From: a virus
Taxonomy: Duplodnaviria > Caudoviricetes
Strand: one strand, 5' to 3'
IMG/VR virus record: IMGVR_UViG_3300044229_003739
Location: 1 to 35,890 of that record
Length of the DNA stretch: 35,890 nt
Positions 1,662 to 10,966 of the stretch are shown here, in pieces. The notes beneath the pieces are model-generated. The model was not told the DNA's origin and searched no databases. It saw only the letters and a list, made by a program, of their open reading frames with translations. The translations under genes were made by a program, and so were the position numbers. The first letter of the stretch is position 1. Every line of letters begins with the position of its first letter.

Positions 1662-3715
1662 ACTGGTACTCCGCTAAAGAATTGGCCGGTTTACCTGGAA
1701 TGCCCGGCACAGAGCGAGGCGTGAAGAAAGCCGCTGAACGCCAGGGCTGGGAAGGCCAGCAGCGCATGGGCAGCAAGGCCGTCGAATACGCCTTCGCCGT
1801 GCTGCCTACCGACACCCAGAACGCGCTGCTTTTGGCACAGGCGGAGAACGCCGAGCCCGCACCCGCCAGCACCGTAGCCTCAACACCTGAAGACCCGCGC
1901 CCAGGGCAGCAGCAGCTGACCGACGCACAGCGCCAGGTAATGAGCGCCCGCGTGGCGTTCGTTCGCGAGATCGAACGCATGAGCCGGATGGTCAGCCAGC
2001 AGCGCGCCATCGAAACGTTAGTCGCCCATGCCAAAGAGGACGATCTAACGCCGTACCTTAAAGAGCGCGTGGTGCTTGCCAACGACCGAAAGACCGCCAC
2101 CCGCAACCTCAGCGAACGCACCCTAAAGCGCTGGATCAGCGACTTTAAAAAGCACGGCGAGCGTGGCCTAGCCCCCAAGCGCCGCCAGGCAGACATGAGC
2201 ATGCCGCCCTGGGCTGGTGATTTTCTCAAGCGTTACCAACGCCCTCAGAAGCCCAGCGTGGAAGCGGCCTATCAAATGCTGGTCGAACAGACCCCGCCGC
2301 CACACCCCTCTATCCACCAGGTGCGCCGCTGGCTTGCCAAGCTCAGCCCGGAAGCCCGCGAGCGTGGCCGCATGGGCGCGCATGAAATCAAAGCGCTCCA
2401 GCCGTTCAAGCGCCGCAGCAGCAAAGACCTTTGGCCCAACGATGTGTGGGTCGCGGATGGCCATACCTTCGACGCCGAAGTGATCAACCCACTGACCGGC
2501 CAAGCGTTCCGCCCCGAGGTCACGCTGATCATCGACTGGGCAACGCGCCGCATCGTTGGCTTTGCCTTGAACCTTGCCGAATCAACTCTGGCCACGCTGG
2601 ATGCGCTACGCGATGCCGTCAGCCGCGCGGGCATGTTCAATCTGTTCTACGTCGATAACGGCTCAGGCTTCGATAACGCCACGGTGTATGAAGTGGTCGA
2701 CCGTCTCGGCGGCACCATCACCCACTCGCTGCCATACAACTCCCAGGCGCGCGGTGTGATCGAGCGCGCCCACCAAAGCACCCTGGTCAAGCTCGCCAAG
2801 ACCATGAGCAGCTACATCGGCGCGGACATGGATAAAGAAGCGTTGACCAGGGCGCACAAGCTCAGCCGCCGCGACATCAAGAAAGGCCTCAAGCCTGCGT
2901 TGATCCCCACGTTCCAGGAGTTTTTCGACCGGCTCAATGACGCCCTGGACGTCTATAACCACCGCCCGCACTCGGGCCTGAGCAAAATTCGCGACCTGGA
3001 CAGCGGCAGGCTGCGCCACCAAAGCCCCATGGAAGCCTGGAAGAACGCCGAGGCCGAAGGCTTTGAAGCGCTGACCGCACCGAGTGATGTGGTCGCCTCG
3101 CTCATGCGCCCGCAAGAAGTGCGCAAAACCAACCGTGGCGAGGTTCGCATCAACGGCGGAACCTACTTTATGGACGCCCTGCGCGACTTCCACGGCGAAG
3201 AGATCCGCGTGGCGTGGGACTACCGCGACACCGGCAGCGTCGGCGTCTACACCCTGGACGGCGAACACCTGGGCGATGCCCAGCTAGACGGCAACGCCAC
3301 CCCCGCAATGCCCGCCAGCATGATCCAGCGCGCCGCCGAGAAACGCGAGAAAGGCCAGCTCAACCGCCTGGCGCAGAAAGCCAAAACCATCACCGGCAGC
3401 GACGTCGAGATCCGCGCGATTACCCCCGCCGCCAGCTACTCGGACGAAAAGCAGTCAGCCGCAGGCCGCGCCTACGCCAAGCAATTGGCGGATGAAGGCA
3501 CTCGCTTTCAGATACCCAACAACAAAATGGAGCGGTACCGGCTTTGGAAAAAGCTGGATGGACAGTTGCAACAAGGAGAGGAAGTGCCTGAAGCCGCCCG
3601 TGAATGGCATGAACGTTATCAGCACCACAGTGATTTAAAAGCCATCGCCAAAGTGATGGATGCAGAAGTGGATGCGGGTGGGCGGCAACCCACCCGCAAC
3701 CGCCGGGCCGTCTGA
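1658..3715 (+). CDS. MuA-like DDE transposase
   Basis: N-terminal Mu HTH (WYSAKELAGLPGMP); catalytic triad WVADGH / YVDNGSGF / ARGVIERAH; Mu-type C-terminal beta domain. Confidence 0.96.
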   Translation: MNWYSAKELAGLPGMPGTERGVKKAAERQGWEGQQRMGSKAVEYAFAVLPTDTQNALLLAQAENAEPAPASTVASTPEDPRPGQQQLTDAQRQVMSARVAFVREIERMSRMVSQQRAIETLVAHAKEDDLTPYLKERVVLANDRKTATRNLSERTLKRWISDFKKHGERGLAPKRRQADMSMPPWAGDFLKRYQRPQKPSVEAAYQMLVEQTPPPHPSIHQVRRWLAKLSPEARERGRMGAHEIKALQPFKRRSSKDLWPNDVWVADGHTFDAEVINPLTGQAFRPEVTLIIDWATRRIVGFALNLAESTLATLDALRDAVSRAGMFNLFYVDNGSGFDNATVYEVVDRLGGTITHSLPYNSQARGVIERAHQSTLVKLAKTMSSYIGADMDKEALTRAHKLSRRDIKKGLKPALIPTFQEFFDRLNDALDVYNHRPHSGLSKIRDLDSGRLRHQSPMEAWKNAEAEGFEALTAPSDVVASLMRPQEVRKTNRGEVRINGGTYFMDALRDFHGEEIRVAWDYRDTGSVGVYTLDGEHLGDAQLDGNATPAMPASMIQRAAEKREKGQLNRLAQKAKTITGSDVEIRAITPAASYSDEKQSAAGRAYAKQLADEGTRFQIPNNKMERYRLWKKLDGQLQQGEEVPEAAREWHERYQHHSDLKAIAKVMDAEVDAGGRQPTRNRRAV

Positions 3716-3756: not shown

Positions 3757-4476
3757 ATGAGCGTCAACACCATTGTACCACTCACCAACGTCGGCTTACT
3801 TGCGGCAGCGGTCGAAAGCGCCGCCAACCGCCCACCGGAGCTGCCTGGCTTGGTGGTCATGTACGGCCCCAGCGGCTACGGCAAAAGCCTGGCGGCGGCC
3901 TACGCCGCCAACATGCACCGCGCCTACTACGTCGAGTGCCGCGAAAGCTGGACCAAGAAAGCCTTTGTGGTCGCCGTACTGCGCGAGATGGGCATCATCC
4001 CCATGAAAACGCTGAGCGAGATGGTCGACCAGATCGCCGAGCAACTCTCCCGCTCGGGTCGCCCGCTGATCATTGATGACGTCCAGTACGTGATCGATAA
4101 AGCAGCGGCCAACGTCCTCACCGACATCTATAACGCCAGCCAAGGGACGCTAATCCTGATCGGTGAAGAGCGCGTGCCCGCGTCAATGGCCCGGCTGGAG
4201 CGCCTGCACAACCGCGTACTGGAATGGGTGCCCGCCCAAGCCGCCAGCCTGGAAGACGTGCGCGCCCTGGCCGACAAAAGCTACCCCGATATCGAGATCG
4301 AAGACGAACTGCTGGAAACCGTCAACGACCGCGTTAAAGGCTGCCTGCGCCGCGTCGCCGTCAACCTCTACCAGATCAACTCGGAAGCCACCGCCAACGG
4401 ATGGACGGTTGTCGGCCTGCGGGAATGGGGCGAGCGTGAGATCCACACCGGCCAGCCACCGGCGAGGAGGGGCTAA
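3757..4476 (+). CDS. MuB-like AAA+ transposition ATPase
   Basis: Walker A GPSGYGKS; Walker B LIIDDVQ; directly downstream of the transposase; RBS AAGGA. Confidence 0.92.
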   Translation: MSVNTIVPLTNVGLLAAAVESAANRPPELPGLVVMYGPSGYGKSLAAAYAANMHRAYYVECRESWTKKAFVVAVLREMGIIPMKTLSEMVDQIAEQLSRSGRPLIIDDVQYVIDKAAANVLTDIYNASQGTLILIGEERVPASMARLERLHNRVLEWVPAQAASLEDVRALADKSYPDIEIEDELLETVNDRVKGCLRRVAVNLYQINSEATANGWTVVGLREWGEREIHTGQPPARRG

Positions 4477-6130: not shown

Positions 6131-6534
6131 CCACCTACAGCGATGAAACCCTGGAGCAATACGCCGACCGTTTCGTGCAACTGCGCTTGGCCCGCCACGG
6201 CGTCAACCTGGCGCAGTACTTGGCCAACCCGGTTCAGTTCGAACGCCTGGCGTTGGAGCCGGAACCGCTACTACCCGCCCAGCAAGCCGCTGTGCTTCGC
6301 ATCTGGCAGCGCTGGGATACCGGCCTGGCCGAGCAGCCAGCCGCTGCACAGGAAAGCTCGGTACCGGACTGGGACTGGCGCGACCTGCTTGAGCGCTGGC
6401 GTTGTGAAACCGAACAGGACGAGCGGGCGGTGGCGCGTATGCAGCAGCGCAACGGTGCCTATGTCGAGCCGCTGCACCACCACCGGCACAACGCCCGTAA
6501 TCGCAGTGCCAACTTTGCCAAGCGAGGTGCCTGA
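6127..6534 (+). CDS. Hypothetical phage protein
   Basis: 135 aa, translationally coupled on both sides. Confidence 0.65.
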   Translation: MTTYSDETLEQYADRFVQLRLARHGVNLAQYLANPVQFERLALEPEPLLPAQQAAVLRIWQRWDTGLAEQPAAAQESSVPDWDWRDLLERWRCETEQDERAVARMQQRNGAYVEPLHHHRHNARNRSANFAKRGA

Positions 6535-6875
6535 TGAGCCACATGGTCCTCTCCCATTTACAGGCCAACGACGGTGCCACGCTCGATGAGCTATGCACCG
6601 CCACCGGCCTGAACGCTGACGCAGTGCGCCACATCCTCACCGGCCTGGTGAATAGCCGCTTTGTGATCGGCGTCGCGCGCTACAACCGCGCGCCGAAGTT
6701 CTACGCCGTCACTAGCCAGGGCCACTGCGAGTGGTGCGGCCTCTACGAGCATCGCCGCGTTGCCGCCATGTGCTCGCGCTGTATCGAGAAAAGCAGTGGC
6801 CTGGAGCCGCTGACCGAAACGCACGTAGCTGCGCTACCGGCAGGCCTAAACACACCCGAAAGGAGCCAAGCATGA
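6534..6875 (+). CDS. Hypothetical protein, wHTH plus CxxC/CxxC zinc-finger-like
   Basis: ATLDELCTATGLNADAVRHILTGL; CEWC...CSRC; TGATG coupling. Confidence 0.65.
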   Translation: MSHMVLSHLQANDGATLDELCTATGLNADAVRHILTGLVNSRFVIGVARYNRAPKFYAVTSQGHCEWCGLYEHRRVAAMCSRCIEKSSGLEPLTETHVAALPAGLNTPERSQA

Positions 6876-7504
6876 ACGCCCAAGCGAATGAAACACAGCA
6901 AGTACCCGACGGCTTCCGCATGGATGCCAAAGGCCGACTGGTGCCCGAAGAGCAAATCAAAGAAATCGACCAGCTACGAGATGAGCTAGTGCTCTCGATT
7001 ATTGACCGCGCGTGTGAGCTGCGCGATCAGCTTCGCGACTTCAAAAGCGACGTGTTCAGCGAGATCGAAGCCTTTGTGCAGACCTCCGCCCAGGAGTACG
7101 ACGTCCAGATCGGTGGCAAGAAAGGCAACATCCAGCTGGTCAGCTTCTGTGGAAAATACAAAGTGCTGCGCGCCATCTCCGAAAACATCACCTTCGATGA
7201 GCGTTTGCAAGCGGCCAAAGGGCTGATTGAAGAGTGCCTGCGGGACTGGACAACAGACGCCCGCCCCGAGGTGGCCACCATCGTTCAGGACGCCTTCCGC
7301 GTCGACCAGGCAGGCAACATCCGCACCGGCCAGGTGCTCGGCCTGCGCCGCCTCAACATTCAGGACAAACGCTGGCTGCGCGCCATGGATGCCATTAGCG
7401 ATGCCATCCAGGTGACTGGCTCCAAGAGCTACATCCGTATCTATGAGCGAGTCGGCAGTACCGACCAGTACAAACCCATCAGCCTAGATATCGCGGGGGT
7501 GTAA
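6872..7504 (+). CDS. DUF3164-family Mu-like phage protein
   Basis: PDGFRMDAKGRLVP...GGKKGNIQLVSF...FDERLQAAKGLI...SKSYIRIYER; RBS AAGGAG before ATG 6872. Confidence 0.88.
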   Translation: MNAQANETQQVPDGFRMDAKGRLVPEEQIKEIDQLRDELVLSIIDRACELRDQLRDFKSDVFSEIEAFVQTSAQEYDVQIGGKKGNIQLVSFCGKYKVLRAISENITFDERLQAAKGLIEECLRDWTTDARPEVATIVQDAFRVDQAGNIRTGQVLGLRRLNIQDKRWLRAMDAISDAIQVTGSKSYIRIYERVGSTDQYKPISLDIAGV

Positions 7505-7507
7505 GCC

Positions 7508-7660
7508 ATGCCTAGCAAATGCGAGTTCTTTTACAAGCTCCAGGAGCGCGGCATTACCGCCGCGCAAGCTAAGAAATGGCTCAAGGCCAATCCGCCGCGT
7601 AAGGGTTGGAAGCATAGCGCCTGGCGCTGGGCCTTTGAGCAGATGGGAGACGCATCATGA
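7508..7660 (+). CDS. Small basic Trp-rich protein, 50 aa (not in ORF track)
   Basis: MPSKCEFFYKLQERGITAAQAKKWLKANPPRKGWKHSAWRWAFEQMGDAS; starts 3 nt after the DUF3164 stop; its TGA overlaps the next ATG. Confidence 0.65.
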   Translation: MPSKCEFFYKLQERGITAAQAKKWLKANPPRKGWKHSAWRWAFEQMGDAS

Positions 7661-7893
7661 CCGCTATCAACAACGCCTCATCCATCCGCGTCAGCCCCGC
7701 CATGGGCGGGTTTGTCGCCATTCTGCGCGGCCAACGCGCCACGGGCACCACCCATCGCGACGCAGCGCTTGCTGTCGCGCGGCGGGTGTACGGCCCACGG
7801 GTCAACGTCGTCAACGACTACCTTCGCTACTCCGATCCGATGGCGGGCATCTAGTACCGCTATTACATCACCCATCAGCGAGGTGCCGCATGA
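7657..7893 (+). pseudogene. Small early gene interrupted by an in-frame TAG at 7852-7854
   Basis: Frame continues past the TAG (YRYYITHQRGAA) to TGA 7891-7893, which overlaps the next ATG as neighbouring genes do. Confidence 0.55.
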
Positions 7894-8228
7894 GCAAAGT
7901 TGAAATCACCAGCATGAATGTCGTCGTGGATAAGCAAGCAATCGGCCAAGCATTCACCACGCTGGCAGCGCCGATCATTGCCGCAAAAGCACTAGCTGAT
8001 TGTTATGGCGATGAGGCAGCTAAAACGATGCTGGGCTTGGAGCCAAAGGAGGATCTCGATAAGTCAGGCGAAGTAGTGCTTGGCACCTACAACGGCCTGG
8101 TATGTCGCCTGGTGATTGAGCCTGAAAGTGGTAGCTGGATGGGTGGCAGCCTAACGCATGAGCCAGTTCAAGGTATCACCATTCAAAACATGGAAGTGAA
8201 TGGCAAGAAGTTAAAGGTCGGAGCATAG
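7890..8228 (+). CDS. Hypothetical protein, 112 aa
   Basis: RBS GAGGTG, ATG 7890 (MSKVEITSM...); visibly AT-richer than its neighbours. Confidence 0.65.
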   Translation: MSKVEITSMNVVVDKQAIGQAFTTLAAPIIAAKALADCYGDEAAKTMLGLEPKEDLDKSGEVVLGTYNGLVCRLVIEPESGSWMGGSLTHEPVQGITIQNMEVNGKKLKVGA

Positions 8229-8282
8229 CGAAACGCCCCATACGGGGCGTCTGCCGGGCGTGGTGGCCCGGCACTGATGAGC
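8228..8282 (+). ncRNA. Hammerhead ribozyme, type II topology
   Basis: GC-GAAA(8230-8233), stem III CGCCCC/ATAC/GGGGCG, GTC triplet (8249-8251), stem I TGCCGGGC/GTGGTG/GCCCGGCA, CTGATGA (8274-8280), GC. All conserved core nucleotides present; intergenic. Confidence 0.9.
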
Positions 8283-8298
8283 AGCCCGGAGACGATTT

Positions 8299-8511
8299 AT
8301 GCCAAGGGGACAACGATCACAGATCGCGATGACCGATATCGGCCCAGAGAAGCTATGCACGAAATGCGACGAATGGTGGCCGGACGATAGCGAGTTTTTT
8401 TACCTAACGCGCGGCGTAACCATTCAGCCGTGCAAGGCCTGCTATGAGCAGCTGCCATCGGTGATCCGAAAAAGAGCAAAACAGCGCAAACAGCCAGCGG
8501 AGTCAGTATGA
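8299..8511 (+). CDS. Small zinc-finger protein (CxxC...CxxC)
   Basis: KLCTKCDEWWP...FF...CKACY; RBS GGAG 8288-8291; ATGA overlap with next gene. Confidence 0.7.
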   Translation: MPRGQRSQIAMTDIGPEKLCTKCDEWWPDDSEFFYLTRGVTIQPCKACYEQLPSVIRKRAKQRKQPAESV

Positions 8512-8921
8512 GCACAACTAAATGGAAGCAACTAGAAGAGCAGCTCTCGGGTGTCTTTGGCAGCGCCACTGTATTGGCCGATGGCCATGAAGTGACGTTC
8601 AGTAAATGCCTAGACGGCGAGAAGCTTGTGATCCGTGTAGGCGTAGATGGCTGGATCAAGGGTATCTGGATGTCCGTGGACGAACACGGCCAGCCGGAGC
8701 ACCCAGAGGGGCGCTTCTACTGTCCGCACCGCTTCCGCCCCTGCAAGCTCAAAGAATACCCCAGTCTTAAGAAGGTGTTCGGCAAGAAGAAGGCGGACGA
8801 AATGACGGCTCTGCGCACCGTGCAAGTCATACCCTACTGGAAAAGCCCGCGCACGCTGATCAGCCACCTTAAAAAGCACTTCCCAGACCTGGAGCTGAAA
8901 ACCGATGAGGTGTCGTCATGA
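8508..8921 (+). CDS. Hypothetical phage protein
   Basis: 137 aa, coupled to both neighbours. Confidence 0.7.
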   Translation: MSTTKWKQLEEQLSGVFGSATVLADGHEVTFSKCLDGEKLVIRVGVDGWIKGIWMSVDEHGQPEHPEGRFYCPHRFRPCKLKEYPSLKKVFGKKKADEMTALRTVQVIPYWKSPRTLISHLKKHFPDLELKTDEVSS

Positions 8922-9340
8922 TCAGCAAAGGCAAGCTGGCCCAGATTCACATCGCAAAGGCACAACTGGGGCTAAGCGATGAAGACTATCGCGCGATCCT
9001 CGCCCGCACCGCAGGCGTGAGCAGTGCCAAAGAACTCACAAATCGTACCGTTGGCGGTGTGATGCATGAGTTCCGGCGGCTGGGCTTTGAACCGAAGCCC
9101 GCAAAGAAAGCAGGCCGGAAGGCACCGCGCACGCCGCGTTCGCGCCAGAACGTAATGGCCAAGATCGAAGCGATGCTGACCCATGCTCAGCGCCCCTGGG
9201 CATACGCCGACAGCATGGCCAAACGCATGTTTAACGTTGAGCGGGTGGACTGGCTAGATGATGACCAGCTCCATCGGCTAATGACCGGTTTGATCATCGA
9301 CGCCAAGCGGCAAGGACGGTATCCCGATGACCTCGCATAA
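8918..9340 (+). CDS. gemA: GemA (Mu gp16, DUF1018) family protein
   Basis: LAQIHIAKAQLGLSDEDYRAIL...GVSSAKELT signature; upstream of mor. Confidence 0.92.
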   Translation: MISKGKLAQIHIAKAQLGLSDEDYRAILARTAGVSSAKELTNRTVGGVMHEFRRLGFEPKPAKKAGRKAPRTPRSRQNVMAKIEAMLTHAQRPWAYADSMAKRMFNVERVDWLDDDQLHRLMTGLIIDAKRQGRYPDDLA

Positions 9341-9758
9341 GCATGAGGACAACCTCGACCTGGGCTTCGGCATCCCCAACGATGCGCTGGATTATCTGGA
9401 CCCCGAGATCTTGAAGAAGTGGCCGCAAGGTCTCTCGGACATGCTCACCGTGGTCGAAAACGCCCACATCCGCGCCGGTGATGAGCCGAAGATAGCCCGC
9501 CGCCGAGCCTTTGCCGCCGTGCGGGCTATCAGTTCGTTTGCGGGTGGGCGGAGTCTTTACGTGCCCCAGGGCCGCCAGCTCGACCGCGCCCTGCGGGATC
9601 GGGAGATCTGGGAGCGCCACAGCGGCGATAACATCCCCCAGCTGGTCGAAGACTACGAACTGACCGAGGCGCAGATTTATAGCATCCTCGCTGAGCAGCG
9701 TAAGCTCGCCCGCGCCCGCTTGCAGTCAGACCTGTTCGCTGATCATGATAAAGGCTAA
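9327..9758 (+). CDS. mor: Mor/C-family transcription activator
   Basis: FAGGRSLYVPQG...RDREIWERHSGDNIPQLVEDYELTEAQIYSIL...QSDLF. Confidence 0.92.
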   Translation: MTSHKHEDNLDLGFGIPNDALDYLDPEILKKWPQGLSDMLTVVENAHIRAGDEPKIARRRAFAAVRAISSFAGGRSLYVPQGRQLDRALRDREIWERHSGDNIPQLVEDYELTEAQIYSILAEQRKLARARLQSDLFADHDKG

Positions 9759-9791
9759 GCTAACTACGATTATAAAAAAATGAGGCTGACT

Positions 9792-10448
9792 ATGGGCTGG
9801 TTGAAAAAGATACAAGAATGGCTTTTAAAAAAACCAAAGGACACACAGCCTAGACAGGCCATGAATGTAAATGTGGCTGTAAGCCCTCCAACGGCACAAG
9901 ATGAAACCATAAGCTCACTGCACAAAGAGGCCACCGCCGCCATTAATGAAAAAGATTTTGAAGGGGCTGTGGAGCGCCTTCAAAAAGCCTATGCAATGAT
10001 GGTGGAAGCTCGAACCGATTACCCTATTGAGCGATATCTGCGCCTGCCCAATTACCTTCAGCAAGCAGGCCGCATGGAAGAAGCCGAAGCCATCTTTCAA
10101 GAGATGTTGTCCACGTGGCAACAAGGCAATGAGAAAGCGAGTATTCATAACCAAATGCGCATTGCTTACGGCCGTGAAAAGCGTTTTGATATTGCCACCG
10201 TGCACGGTATGCATAGCATCCTCTGGCGCTGTATCTCCTACACAGAGCACAGAACACCATTGCCGAAGGAAGAGTGGGCGACCTTAGAGCATTGGAAGCC
10301 AGAAGTAGAGAAGTTGCTGAAGCGCACTAAGCAAACAGAATTACTGGATCAAGTGCTCGATAAGCTGCAAGTTTTTCTGGCCAACCCTGACCGCGACCAA
10401 CTGAAAAAAACGGCTGATGAAATCGAAACGATCATCCAAGCGCGTTGA
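9792..10448 (+). CDS. Accessory helical-repeat (TPR-like) protein
   Basis: AT-richer; LPNYLQQAGRMEEAEAIFQEML TPR-like helices; amphipathic N-terminus MGWLKKIQEWLL; RBS GAGG before ATG 9792 (ORF open from 9780). Confidence 0.7.
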   Translation: MGWLKKIQEWLLKKPKDTQPRQAMNVNVAVSPPTAQDETISSLHKEATAAINEKDFEGAVERLQKAYAMMVEARTDYPIERYLRLPNYLQQAGRMEEAEAIFQEMLSTWQQGNEKASIHNQMRIAYGREKRFDIATVHGMHSILWRCISYTEHRTPLPKEEWATLEHWKPEVEKLLKRTKQTELLDQVLDKLQVFLANPDRDQLKKTADEIETIIQAR

Positions 10449-10465
10449 ATACAAAACGAATCCAT

Positions 10466-10490
10466 AACCCGCCACGGCGGGTTGTTTGCT
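10466..10490 (+). terminator. Putative intrinsic terminator
   Basis: AACCCGC-CACG-GCGGGTT hairpin followed by GTTTGCTTT. Confidence 0.6.
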
Positions 10491-10502
10491 TTCTGGGGCA
10501 CC

Positions 10503-10553
10503 AAAACTCCTAAACCGCTTGATTCCCGCCGCCTAGCCCAACCCCTCTAACCT
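10503..10553 (+). promoter_or_regulatory. Putative activator-dependent late promoter (Plys-like)
   Basis: AAAACTCCTAAACCGCTT 10503-10520, 17/18 identical to 19158-19175; -10-like TAACCT 10548-10553; no -35. Confidence 0.6.
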
Positions 10554-10603
10554 GAACCTCACTGCAACGTGCTTTAGCCACCCATGCAATGAGGCTCACT
10601 CCC

Positions 10604-10966
10604 ATGCCCCGCAACGATCTTTCCAACCATTTCCAGCGCCGCGAGTTCGCGTGTAAATGCGGCTGCGGCTTCGATACCGTCGACCTTGAAACCCTGGTGC
10701 TGCTGGAAGACATCCGCACCCATTTTGACGTACCCGTCACCATCAACAGCGGCTGCCGCTGTGAAGCTTACAACCGCAAGGTAGGCGGTGCTGCTGCCAG
10801 CCAGCACCTGTTAGGCCGCGCAGCTGACATCCGCGTGCAGGGCGTTGACCCCGCAGAGGTCGCCGAATACATCGAAACCCAGCACCCTGATGCCAGTGTT
10901 GGCCGCTACAACACCTTCACCCACGTGGATACACGCACAAGCGGCCCTGCCCGCTGGGGCGGGTGA
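10604..10966 (+). CDS. Endolysin, peptidase M15A family
   Basis: HFQRREFACKCGCG; SGCRC..N..VGGA..SQHL.G.AADI; THVD zinc ligands; RBS GAGG before ATG 10604 (alternative start 10589). Confidence 0.9.
   Translation: MPRNDLSNHFQRREFACKCGCGFDTVDLETLVLLEDIRTHFDVPVTINSGCRCEAYNRKVGGAAASQHLLGRAADIRVQGVDPAEVAEYIETQHPDASVGRYNTFTHVDTRTSGPARWGG

What the first reader, a model, noticed from the sequence alone, without database searches (positions are those of the whole stretch)
8228..8291. Self-cleaving hammerhead ribozyme inside the early operon, upstream of gemA-mor
Seen: the 70-nt gap between two early genes is almost entirely a type II hammerhead: GC-GAAA, stem III (ACGCCCC/GGGGCGT), GUC triplet, 8-bp stem I, CUGAUGA, GC. 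The 2-bp stem II uses the G of the upstream TAG stop. Known: this core self-cleaves 3' of GUC (after 8251), leaving a 5'-OH product; hammerheads have been reported in bacterial and prophage DNA, with largely unknown roles. Inference: cleavage would split the ner-A-B transcript from a 5'-OH, hairpin-capped mRNA for the zinc-finger gene, gemA and mor, acting as an RNA processing step that tunes the only Mor/C activator and so the early-to-late switch.
Basis: partly seen in the sequence, partly recalled or inferred. Interest (0 to 1): 0.9.

Follow-up and report, generated by a model that had tools for sequence, protein, structure and literature searches.

The report
Hammerhead ribozyme splitting Mu-like early mRNA
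This Mu-like prophage carries a standard type II hammerhead ribozyme motif in the same slot, ahead of the gemA and mor genes, where many related phages (including the lab models D3112, DMS3 and RcapMu) keep one, and it likely cuts the long early message into two separately protected pieces; the RNA class and its link to Mu-like phages are known, but its job is untested.

Summary
Confirmed. Window 8226-8290 matches Rfam Hammerhead_II (76.1 bits, cut-off 37) with an intact core; the predicted cut is after C8251. The window is a Halomonadaceae-type Mu-like provirus. The ribozyme's place is fixed: 37 of 37 whole-record hits in relatives lie, sense, between DUF3164 and gemA; in 80 genome loci picked by GemA alone, 51 carry it, 61 of 61 hits upstream, none downstream, while flanking genes vary widely. 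D3112, DMS3 and RcapMu have one copy there; Mu and B3 have none (Mu has a promoter before gemA). Most likely it cuts constitutively, leaving hairpins on both new ends, so the gemA-mor mRNA is insulated and likely stabilised. Cleavage, direction of the effect and any role in timing are untested; RNA contigs gave no usable support. Type II hammerheads, prophage processing and the Mu-like link are published; I found no paper on this slot. This scan noted a hammerhead before mor in another prophage (e1-9590185). New member of a known kind, but it makes an open question testable in DMS3.

The parts
8226..8290 (+). Type II hammerhead ribozyme (Rfam RF02276), whole match
   Evidence: 76.1 bits, E 2.2e-14; only copy in the record
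8228..8229 (+). Stem II 5' strand (GC), pairs with 8281-8282; G8228 is the last base of the upstream TAG
   Evidence: sequence
8230..8250 (+). GAAA core and stem III hairpin; would form the 3' end of the upstream product
8249..8252 (+). GUC triplet; predicted cleavage between C8251 and U8252
   Evidence: sequence plus established hammerhead chemistry; not measured
8252..8273 (+). Stem I hairpin (8 bp, loop GUGGUG); would cap the 5' end of the downstream product
   Evidence: 54-56 of 56 homologues paired at each position
8274..8282 (+). CUGAUGA core and stem II 3' strand
8284..8286 (+). Pseudoknot 3' strand GCC pairing with loop I GGU (8262-8264); fourth pair U8261/C8287 mismatched here
   Evidence: three pairs kept in 56 of 56, fourth in 52 of 56; partner swap 0 of 500
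8288..8291 (+). Shine-Dalgarno-like GGAG of the next gene, directly after the pseudoknot strand
   Evidence: sequence
6872..7504 (+). DUF3164 gene (gam position), upstream landmark of the slot
   Evidence: PF11363
7893..8228 (+). Accessory ORF whose stop abuts the ribozyme; no family match
8299..8511 (+). Small Cys-rich ORF (phrog_3273), first gene of the downstream product
8508..8921 (+). phrog_5671 ORF
8918..9340 (+). gemA (PF06252)
9327..9758 (+). mor-family activator (PF08765), the only one found in the window
10464..10495 (+). Terminator-like hairpin; likely 3' end of the downstream mRNA
   Evidence: consensus scan only

Best explanation
It is a type II hammerhead ribozyme motif held in a fixed slot between the DUF3164/gam gene and gemA of Mu-like phages, and it likely works as a constitutive RNA processing site: it would cut the early transcript after C8251 into an upstream ner-A-B-DUF3164 mRNA and a downstream mRNA for the small ORFs, gemA and mor. 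The type II layout would leave a hairpin on each new end (stem III plus a cyclic phosphate on the upstream piece; a 5'-OH directly on stem I on the downstream piece), and the 2-bp stem II would let the pieces part. The downstream mRNA would thus get a fixed, nuclease-resistant leader whatever accessory genes are swapped in upstream, like a natural RiboJ insulator, giving gemA-mor a lifetime of its own. Mu has an internal promoter just before gemA, which may do the same job at the DNA level. Shown: motif, covariation, position, gene turnover around it. Inferred: cleavage (about 0.9), co-transcription from the early promoter, stabilisation, benefit to gemA-mor.
For: Rfam match with full core. 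Fixed place: 37 of 37 above-cut-off hits from whole-record searches of 48 related virus records lie on the sense strand between DUF3164 and gemA, an interval of median 2.2 kb. In 80 GTDB loci picked only by GemA with 3.4 kb each side, 51 have RF02276; 61 of 61 hits are sense and upstream of gemA, 0 downstream. Among 79 loci picked only by the RNA pattern, 71 passed stem checks, 37 hold gemA, and all 37 have the ribozyme upstream on the same strand; 0 of 29 of the other contigs tested hold GemA (control 5 of 5). Neighbours vary: 23 clusters among 57 upstream ORFs and 13 among 59 downstream ORFs; gemA itself follows directly in L009, L010, L033. Stem I and pseudoknot pairs covary. mor directly follows gemA in 49 of 51 ribozyme-positive but 14 of 29 negative loci (not independent of descent). 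Mu's GenBank record has a semi-early promoter before gemA and no ribozyme. Published: prophage type II hammerheads cleave in vitro and in E. coli (PMC3088659, passages); RiboJ raises mRNA about twofold and protein 2-10-fold (PMC6206723, passages). 5'-OH and 5'-hairpin protection against RNase E is recalled knowledge.
Against: No cleavage was measured. The pseudoknot here is 3 bp, not the usual 4, and shortening a pseudoknot slowed another type II hammerhead 20- to over 100-fold (PMC3088659, passage). Absent from Mu, B3 and 5 other named Mu-like phages and from 29 of 80 GemA loci; about 15 gains or losses on a quick GemA tree. Halomonadaceae genomes hold an RNase J-like gene (270-281 bits, under the 400 cut-off), so a 5'-OH end might be degraded instead. 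RNA contigs of five studies bridge the site in a D3112-like locus, which shows uncut RNA or DNA in those libraries. Some loci carry two or three copies, which fits a general gene spacer as well as a gemA-mor device.
Confidence: 0.6

Rival explanations
1. Cleavage lowers gemA-mor expression: as with glmS in Bacillus, the 5'-OH product is fed to RNase J, damping Mor and delaying late genes.
For: glmS precedent (PMC6765202, passage); RNase J-like genes in 3 of 3 Halomonadaceae genomes and Desulfovibrio tested.
Against: The Pseudomonas genome tested has no RNase J match, yet Pseudomonas phages keep the ribozyme; the product starts with an 8-bp hairpin and no unpaired 5' bases, which by recalled knowledge blocks RNase J.
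Confidence: 0.12
2. It is a local translation insulator for whichever gene follows (fixed leader, open ribosome-binding site, uncoupling from the upstream gene); gemA and mor are bystanders.
For: A start codon follows within 5-25 nt in 59 of 59; extra copies sit before other small genes; arrays before single genes in non-Mu phages; in DMS3-type phages the next ORF starts 7-9 nt after stem II with no separate SD.
Against: The next gene changes while the slot before gemA does not; no copy downstream of gemA in 80 loci. Folding shows little change in SD access between precursor and product.
Confidence: 0.12
3. It is a regulated switch: a ribosome at the upstream stop, a competing helix (8254-8259 with 8284-8289) or salt/Mg gates cleavage and so times Mor.
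For: The upstream stop ends 0-5 nt before GAAA in 50 of 59, within reach of a terminating ribosome (inference); weakened pseudoknot; salt control was proposed for halovirus hammerheads (PMC3088659, section 11).
Against: Tight packing is general in Mu-like genomes; the competing helix is 6.3 kcal/mol weaker than stem I and needs the AGCCCGG tail seen in few homologues (2 of 56 have GCAGCCC); the core is canonical; the same design occurs in non-halophile hosts.
Confidence: 0.08
4. Its value is at the DNA level, as a conserved homology patch for swapping accessory genes, or it is a passenger with little effect.
For: Genes change on both sides of it; patchy across the family.
Against: Compensatory changes in stem I and the pseudoknot keep RNA structure rather than DNA identity; stem III varies in length and sequence; always sense. 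A study of D3112-like phages saw no common recombination target at its variable regions (PMC4378225, passage).
Confidence: 0.08

Closest known systems
Type II hammerhead ribozymes of bacteria and prophages (Perreault et al. 2011, PMC3088659; Rfam RF02276)
   Same: Same permutation, core, 2-bp stem II and loop I/3'-tail pseudoknot; the window nearly equals the Rfam consensus. That paper already proposes processing of long phage transcripts.
   Different: That paper shows clusters around single genes 'whose identities are not constant'; here one copy holds a fixed slot before gemA(-mor). The pseudoknot is one pair shorter than usual.
Hammerhead and twister ribozymes enriched near Mu-like phage genes (Roth 2014, Weinberg 2015; not read, cited from PMC10085705 and PMC6765202)
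   Same: This is an instance of that association; PMC10085705 calls it the strongest gene link and says its reason is unknown.
   Different: I found no statement of the exact slot, of its presence in D3112/DMS3/RcapMu, or of a mechanism in the papers I could read; no twister or pistol reached cut-off in the 80 + 17 loci scanned.
Semi-early (gem) promoter of phage Mu before gemA-mor (GenBank AF083977)
   Same: Marks off gemA-mor from the rest of the early region.
   Different: A DNA promoter, not an RNA cut; Mu has no hammerhead.
RiboJ synthetic insulator (PMC6206723); RNase III processing of T7 early mRNA (recalled)
   Same: A cut that leaves a fixed hairpin leader before a ribosome-binding site; splitting of a phage early message.
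   Different: RiboJ is engineered and sits after a promoter; T7 uses a host enzyme.

Membership tests
Hammerhead ribozyme, type II (RF02276) | Core CUGANGA, GAAA and NUH triplet | tested here: met
   CTGATGA 8274-8280, GAAA 8230-8233, GTC 8249-8251; CUGANGA in 56 of 56 distinct homologues, GUC in 54
Hammerhead ribozyme, type II (RF02276) | Three stems, I and III closed by loops, II open | tested here: met
   stem I paired in 54-56 of 56 homologues per position with several pair types
Hammerhead ribozyme, type II (RF02276) | Score above the Rfam gathering cut-off | tested here: met
   76.1 against 37 bits
Hammerhead ribozyme, type II (RF02276) | Loop I / 3'-tail pseudoknot | tested here: met
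   3 bp in the window; compensatory variants among homologues; fourth pair mismatched here
Hammerhead ribozyme, type II (RF02276) | Mg-dependent self-cleavage 3' of C17 | not testable with these tools
   needs in vitro transcription; contigs cannot show RNA ends
Mu-like (transposable) prophage early region | c, ner, A, B, gam-position gene, gemA, mor in order | tested here: met
   PHROGs and Pfam matches
Ligand-gated ribozyme switch (glmS-like) | Conserved sensing domain or conserved alternative fold | tested here: not met
   the gap holds only ribozyme, SD and spacer; the alternative helix is weaker and not conserved
Clustered hammerhead arrays flanking single phage genes | Several copies in one operon | tested here: not met
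   one copy in the window; some relatives have 2-3

The most novel reading that the evidence does not exclude
A large lineage of Mu-like phages has replaced Mu's internal gem promoter with a self-cutting RNA: the hammerhead makes gemA-mor a separate, long-lived mRNA that sets when Mor turns on late genes, and other lineages fill the slot before gemA with RNase III-sized hairpins. A single dead-ribozyme mutation in DMS3 or JBD30 would then shift lysis timing, giving the first defined biological role for a phage hammerhead.
Probability: 0.25. Interest if true: 0.75.

Novelty: new member of a known kind. Interest (0 to 1): 0.5.

Why it matters
Why self-cleaving ribozymes crowd near Mu-like phage genes is stated as unknown (PMC10085705, 2023), and only glmS has a well-understood role in bacteria (PMC6765202, 2019). 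Narrowing that link to one slot before gemA-mor, and showing a single copy in D3112, DMS3 and RcapMu, turns it into a one-mutation experiment in phages with working genetics. The RNA itself is ordinary.

Tried and rejected
Expression evidence: my one run search used a D3112-like locus (L145), not the window; all 24 runs were contigs, 8 were laid. Two runs of one study (X17, X18) break across the predicted cut (pieces end at 3996 and 3992, restart at 4041 and 4039; cut at 4031/4032), but X18 also breaks at 3818-3844 and runs of five other studies (X1, X7, X8, X11, X12) bridge the site: below the tool's bar for a weak hint, not used as support. Other ribozyme classes in the slot: none at Rfam cut-off in 80 genome loci or 17 other loci, none at E up to 5 in 9 negative loci, none with a relaxed type I/II/III pattern in the 29 negative loci. 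RNase III hairpin as a strict substitute: long hairpins anywhere upstream were not clearly enriched (9 of 29 against 7 of 51, p 0.08; 11 of 29 against 11 of 51, p 0.13); within 60 nt of gemA 7 of 29 against 3 of 51 (p 0.03, a cut chosen after seeing the data, related lineages, and 3 loci have both): a lead only. Competing helix over the SD: weaker and not conserved. Internal promoter: no sigma-70-like site on + before 10192 (a consensus scan only). Stem counts are partly circular because the script selected for stems; one search is the cleaner set. Whether D3112 was in the 2011 alignment could not be told: the supplement file is cut and one file unreadable. The careful GemA tree did not finish; the quick tree is used, and the PR2c row is a guessed GemA on a long branch.

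Full report
OBSERVATION. A scan of the whole window against 4227 Rfam families gave one match, RF02276 Hammerhead_II at 8226-8290, 76.1 bits against a cut-off of 37, E 2.2e-14; it is the only copy in the record. Folding energy alone is modest (z -2.09).

CONTEXT. PHROGs and Pfam give c repressor, ner, transposase A, B, DUF3164, gemA and a single Mor-family gene in Mu order. The closest GemA proteins (94-99%) are in Vreelandella and Halomonas genomes, and on a quick tree the window sits in a 20-row Halomonadaceae group whose members all carry the ribozyme. A consensus scan of 6500-10700 found no sigma-70-like promoter on + before 10192 and a terminator-like hairpin at 10464-10485, so gemA and mor likely depend on read-through from the early promoter (inference).

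CONSERVATION OF PLACE. (a) Of 48 virus records picked by GemA or DUF3164 similarity, 35 have RF02276 over the cut-off in whole-record searches; all 37 such hits are sense and between DUF3164 and gemA, an interval of 1.1-3.1 kb. Of the 13 misses, five are fragments that do not span the interval and eight are distant relatives. (b) Of 80 GTDB loci picked only by GemA, with 3.4 kb on each side, 51 carry it (20 of 20, 18 of 20, 8 of 20, 5 of 20 down the ranking); all 61 hits are sense and upstream of gemA, none downstream. These loci include near-duplicates and two identical pairs, so they are not independent. (c) Of 79 loci picked only by an RNA pattern (the first listed of 134), 8 failed my stem check, 37 of the other 71 hold gemA, and all 37 have the ribozyme upstream on the same strand; two extra copies lie elsewhere in one locus. 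None of 29 other contigs tested holds GemA (positive control 5 of 5); many of these are non-Mu phages with arrays. (d) The 91-nt query matches 224 GenBank phage records at E up to 1, among them 76 Pseudomonas and 97 largely redundant Ralstonia records. D3112, DMS3 and RcapMu each have one copy, in this slot; Mu and B3 have none. RS1, B23, ZX4290, PR2c and YO381 have it (several were chosen because they matched); phiSHP3, a Klebsiella phage, 3927AP2, RR1-B and HS6 do not in the stretches scanned.

CONSERVATION OF STRUCTURE. From the 61 hits I dropped one truncated and one unparsed, leaving 59 (56 distinct). CUGANGA holds in 56 of 56, GUC in 54; each stem I position is paired in 54-56 of 56 with two to six letter pairs; three pseudoknot pairs hold in 56 of 56, with U-G to C-G or U-A and G-C to A-U changes; the fourth holds in 52 of 56 and is a U/C mismatch in the window. 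In a wider set of 235 hammerheads the loop-tail match averages 4.08 bp against 3.54 with partners swapped (0 of 500 swaps as high). The upstream stop ends 0-5 nt before GAAA in 50 of 59 and a start codon follows within 5-25 nt in 59 of 59, while neighbours fall into 23 upstream and 13 downstream clusters. The ribozyme is the fixed part; the genes turn over around it.

MECHANISM. By established hammerhead chemistry the cut after C8251 gives a cyclic phosphate and a 5'-OH. In the type II layout the upstream piece ends in stem III plus two bases, the downstream piece starts directly with stem I (both hairpins fold in the separate products), and only two pairs plus the short pseudoknot hold them together. 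By recalled knowledge such ends resist 3' exonucleases and 5'-end-dependent RNase E decay. RiboJ, an engineered hammerhead-plus-hairpin leader, raised mRNA about twofold and protein 2-10-fold (PMC6206723, passages). I therefore read the element as a constitutive processing site that makes gemA-mor a separate, likely more stable mRNA (0.6). Mu's record shows a semi-early promoter just before gemA, a DNA-level way of marking off the same unit. mor directly follows gemA in 49 of 51 positive but 14 of 29 negative loci, which fits but is confounded by descent. Against: nothing was measured; the pseudoknot is short; the element is absent from 29 of 80 loci and needs about 15 changes on the tree (at least 5 forced); Halomonadaceae have an RNase J-like gene below the family cut-off while the one Pseudomonas genome tested has none, so the direction of the effect is open. 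RNA contigs gave no usable support (see Tried and rejected). A regulated switch has little support.

LITERATURE. PMC3088659 (passages, whole Discussion, supplement list and two supplement searches; the alignment file is cut and one file unreadable) defines type II hammerheads and the pseudoknot, shows prophage clusters cleaving in vitro and in E. coli, and proposes processing of phage transcripts. PMC10085705 (one passage) says the strongest gene link of bacterial hammerheads and twisters is to Mu-like phage genes and that the reason is unknown. PMC6765202 (passages) says roles in bacteria are largely elusive apart from glmS. PMC4378225 and PMC9769972 (passages) describe D3112-like and Chromohalobacter Mu-like genomes; 'ribozyme' does not occur in either. 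PMC5737381 (passages) added nothing. Roth 2014 and Weinberg 2015 were not read and may list these genes. Searches for this slot found nothing: hammerhead ribozyme + Mu-like + prophage 0; self-cleaving ribozyme + hammerhead + Mu-like 1; ribozyme + GemA + phage 0; four phage-ribozyme terms since 2020, 0; ribozyme with D3112/DMS3/JBD30/RcapMu: of 30 listed among 114, one holds the word (listing only). The library lacks most subscription papers.

EARLIER SCAN NOTES. One note reports a type II hammerhead directly before mor in another Mu-like prophage (e1-9590185); many report phage arrays, and two report the core doubling as a ribosome-binding site. They are leads, not support.

VERDICT. A real, canonical type II hammerhead: a new member of a known kind in a known kind of neighbourhood. 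What this adds is the strict slot before gemA(-mor), the turnover of genes around it, and single copies in tractable phages, which makes an open question directly testable. Interest 0.5.

Noticed in passing
L252 3338-3385, L254 3337-3386, L264 2807-2866 and 3338-3385, L282-L285 about 3301-3360, L256 3323-3370, L262 3313-3370, L289 3334-3383: Irregular hairpins of 18-24 bp, RNase III-substrate size, fill the gap just before gemA in Neisseriales/Burkholderiales-type Mu-like prophages, mostly those without a hammerhead; no Rfam match in those tested. Possibly an undescribed processing motif.
   Followed up: partly
L208 3115-3310 (DMS3), L002 9439-9630 (D3112), L241, L243, L250, L251, L258: An Arg-rich ORF starts 7-9 nt after stem II with no separate SD, so the core GAUGAG may serve as the ribosome-binding site; the annotated start of ORF17 in DMS3 lies further downstream, and D3112 has one base fewer in this stretch.
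   Followed up: partly
L004 (Streptomyces phage Jevington), L128, L098, L139: Arrays of type II hammerheads between small genes of non-Mu phages: 7 in L004, 21 in L128, with pseudoknot covariation.
   Followed up: no
G080-G082 (Halomonadaceae genomes): RNase J-like genes (270-281 bits, model positions 2-439 of 546) in Gammaproteobacteria, below the curated cut-off.
   Followed up: no
window 9780-10448: A 222-aa moron-like ORF with weak TPR matches between mor and the endolysin, followed by a terminator-like hairpin; it would ride on the downstream mRNA.
   Followed up: no
L018 3828-3893, L021 3881-3946, L024 3015-3080: Close relatives with one C/A mismatch in stem I, apparent intermediates between C-G and U-A pairs.
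   Followed up: no
L101, L122: Exceptions to the slot: two extra hammerheads downstream of mor in L101, and one upstream of the transposase in L122.
   Followed up: no
L288 6166-6348: isrK and C4 antisense RNA matches beside a Mu-like GemA locus.
   Followed up: no
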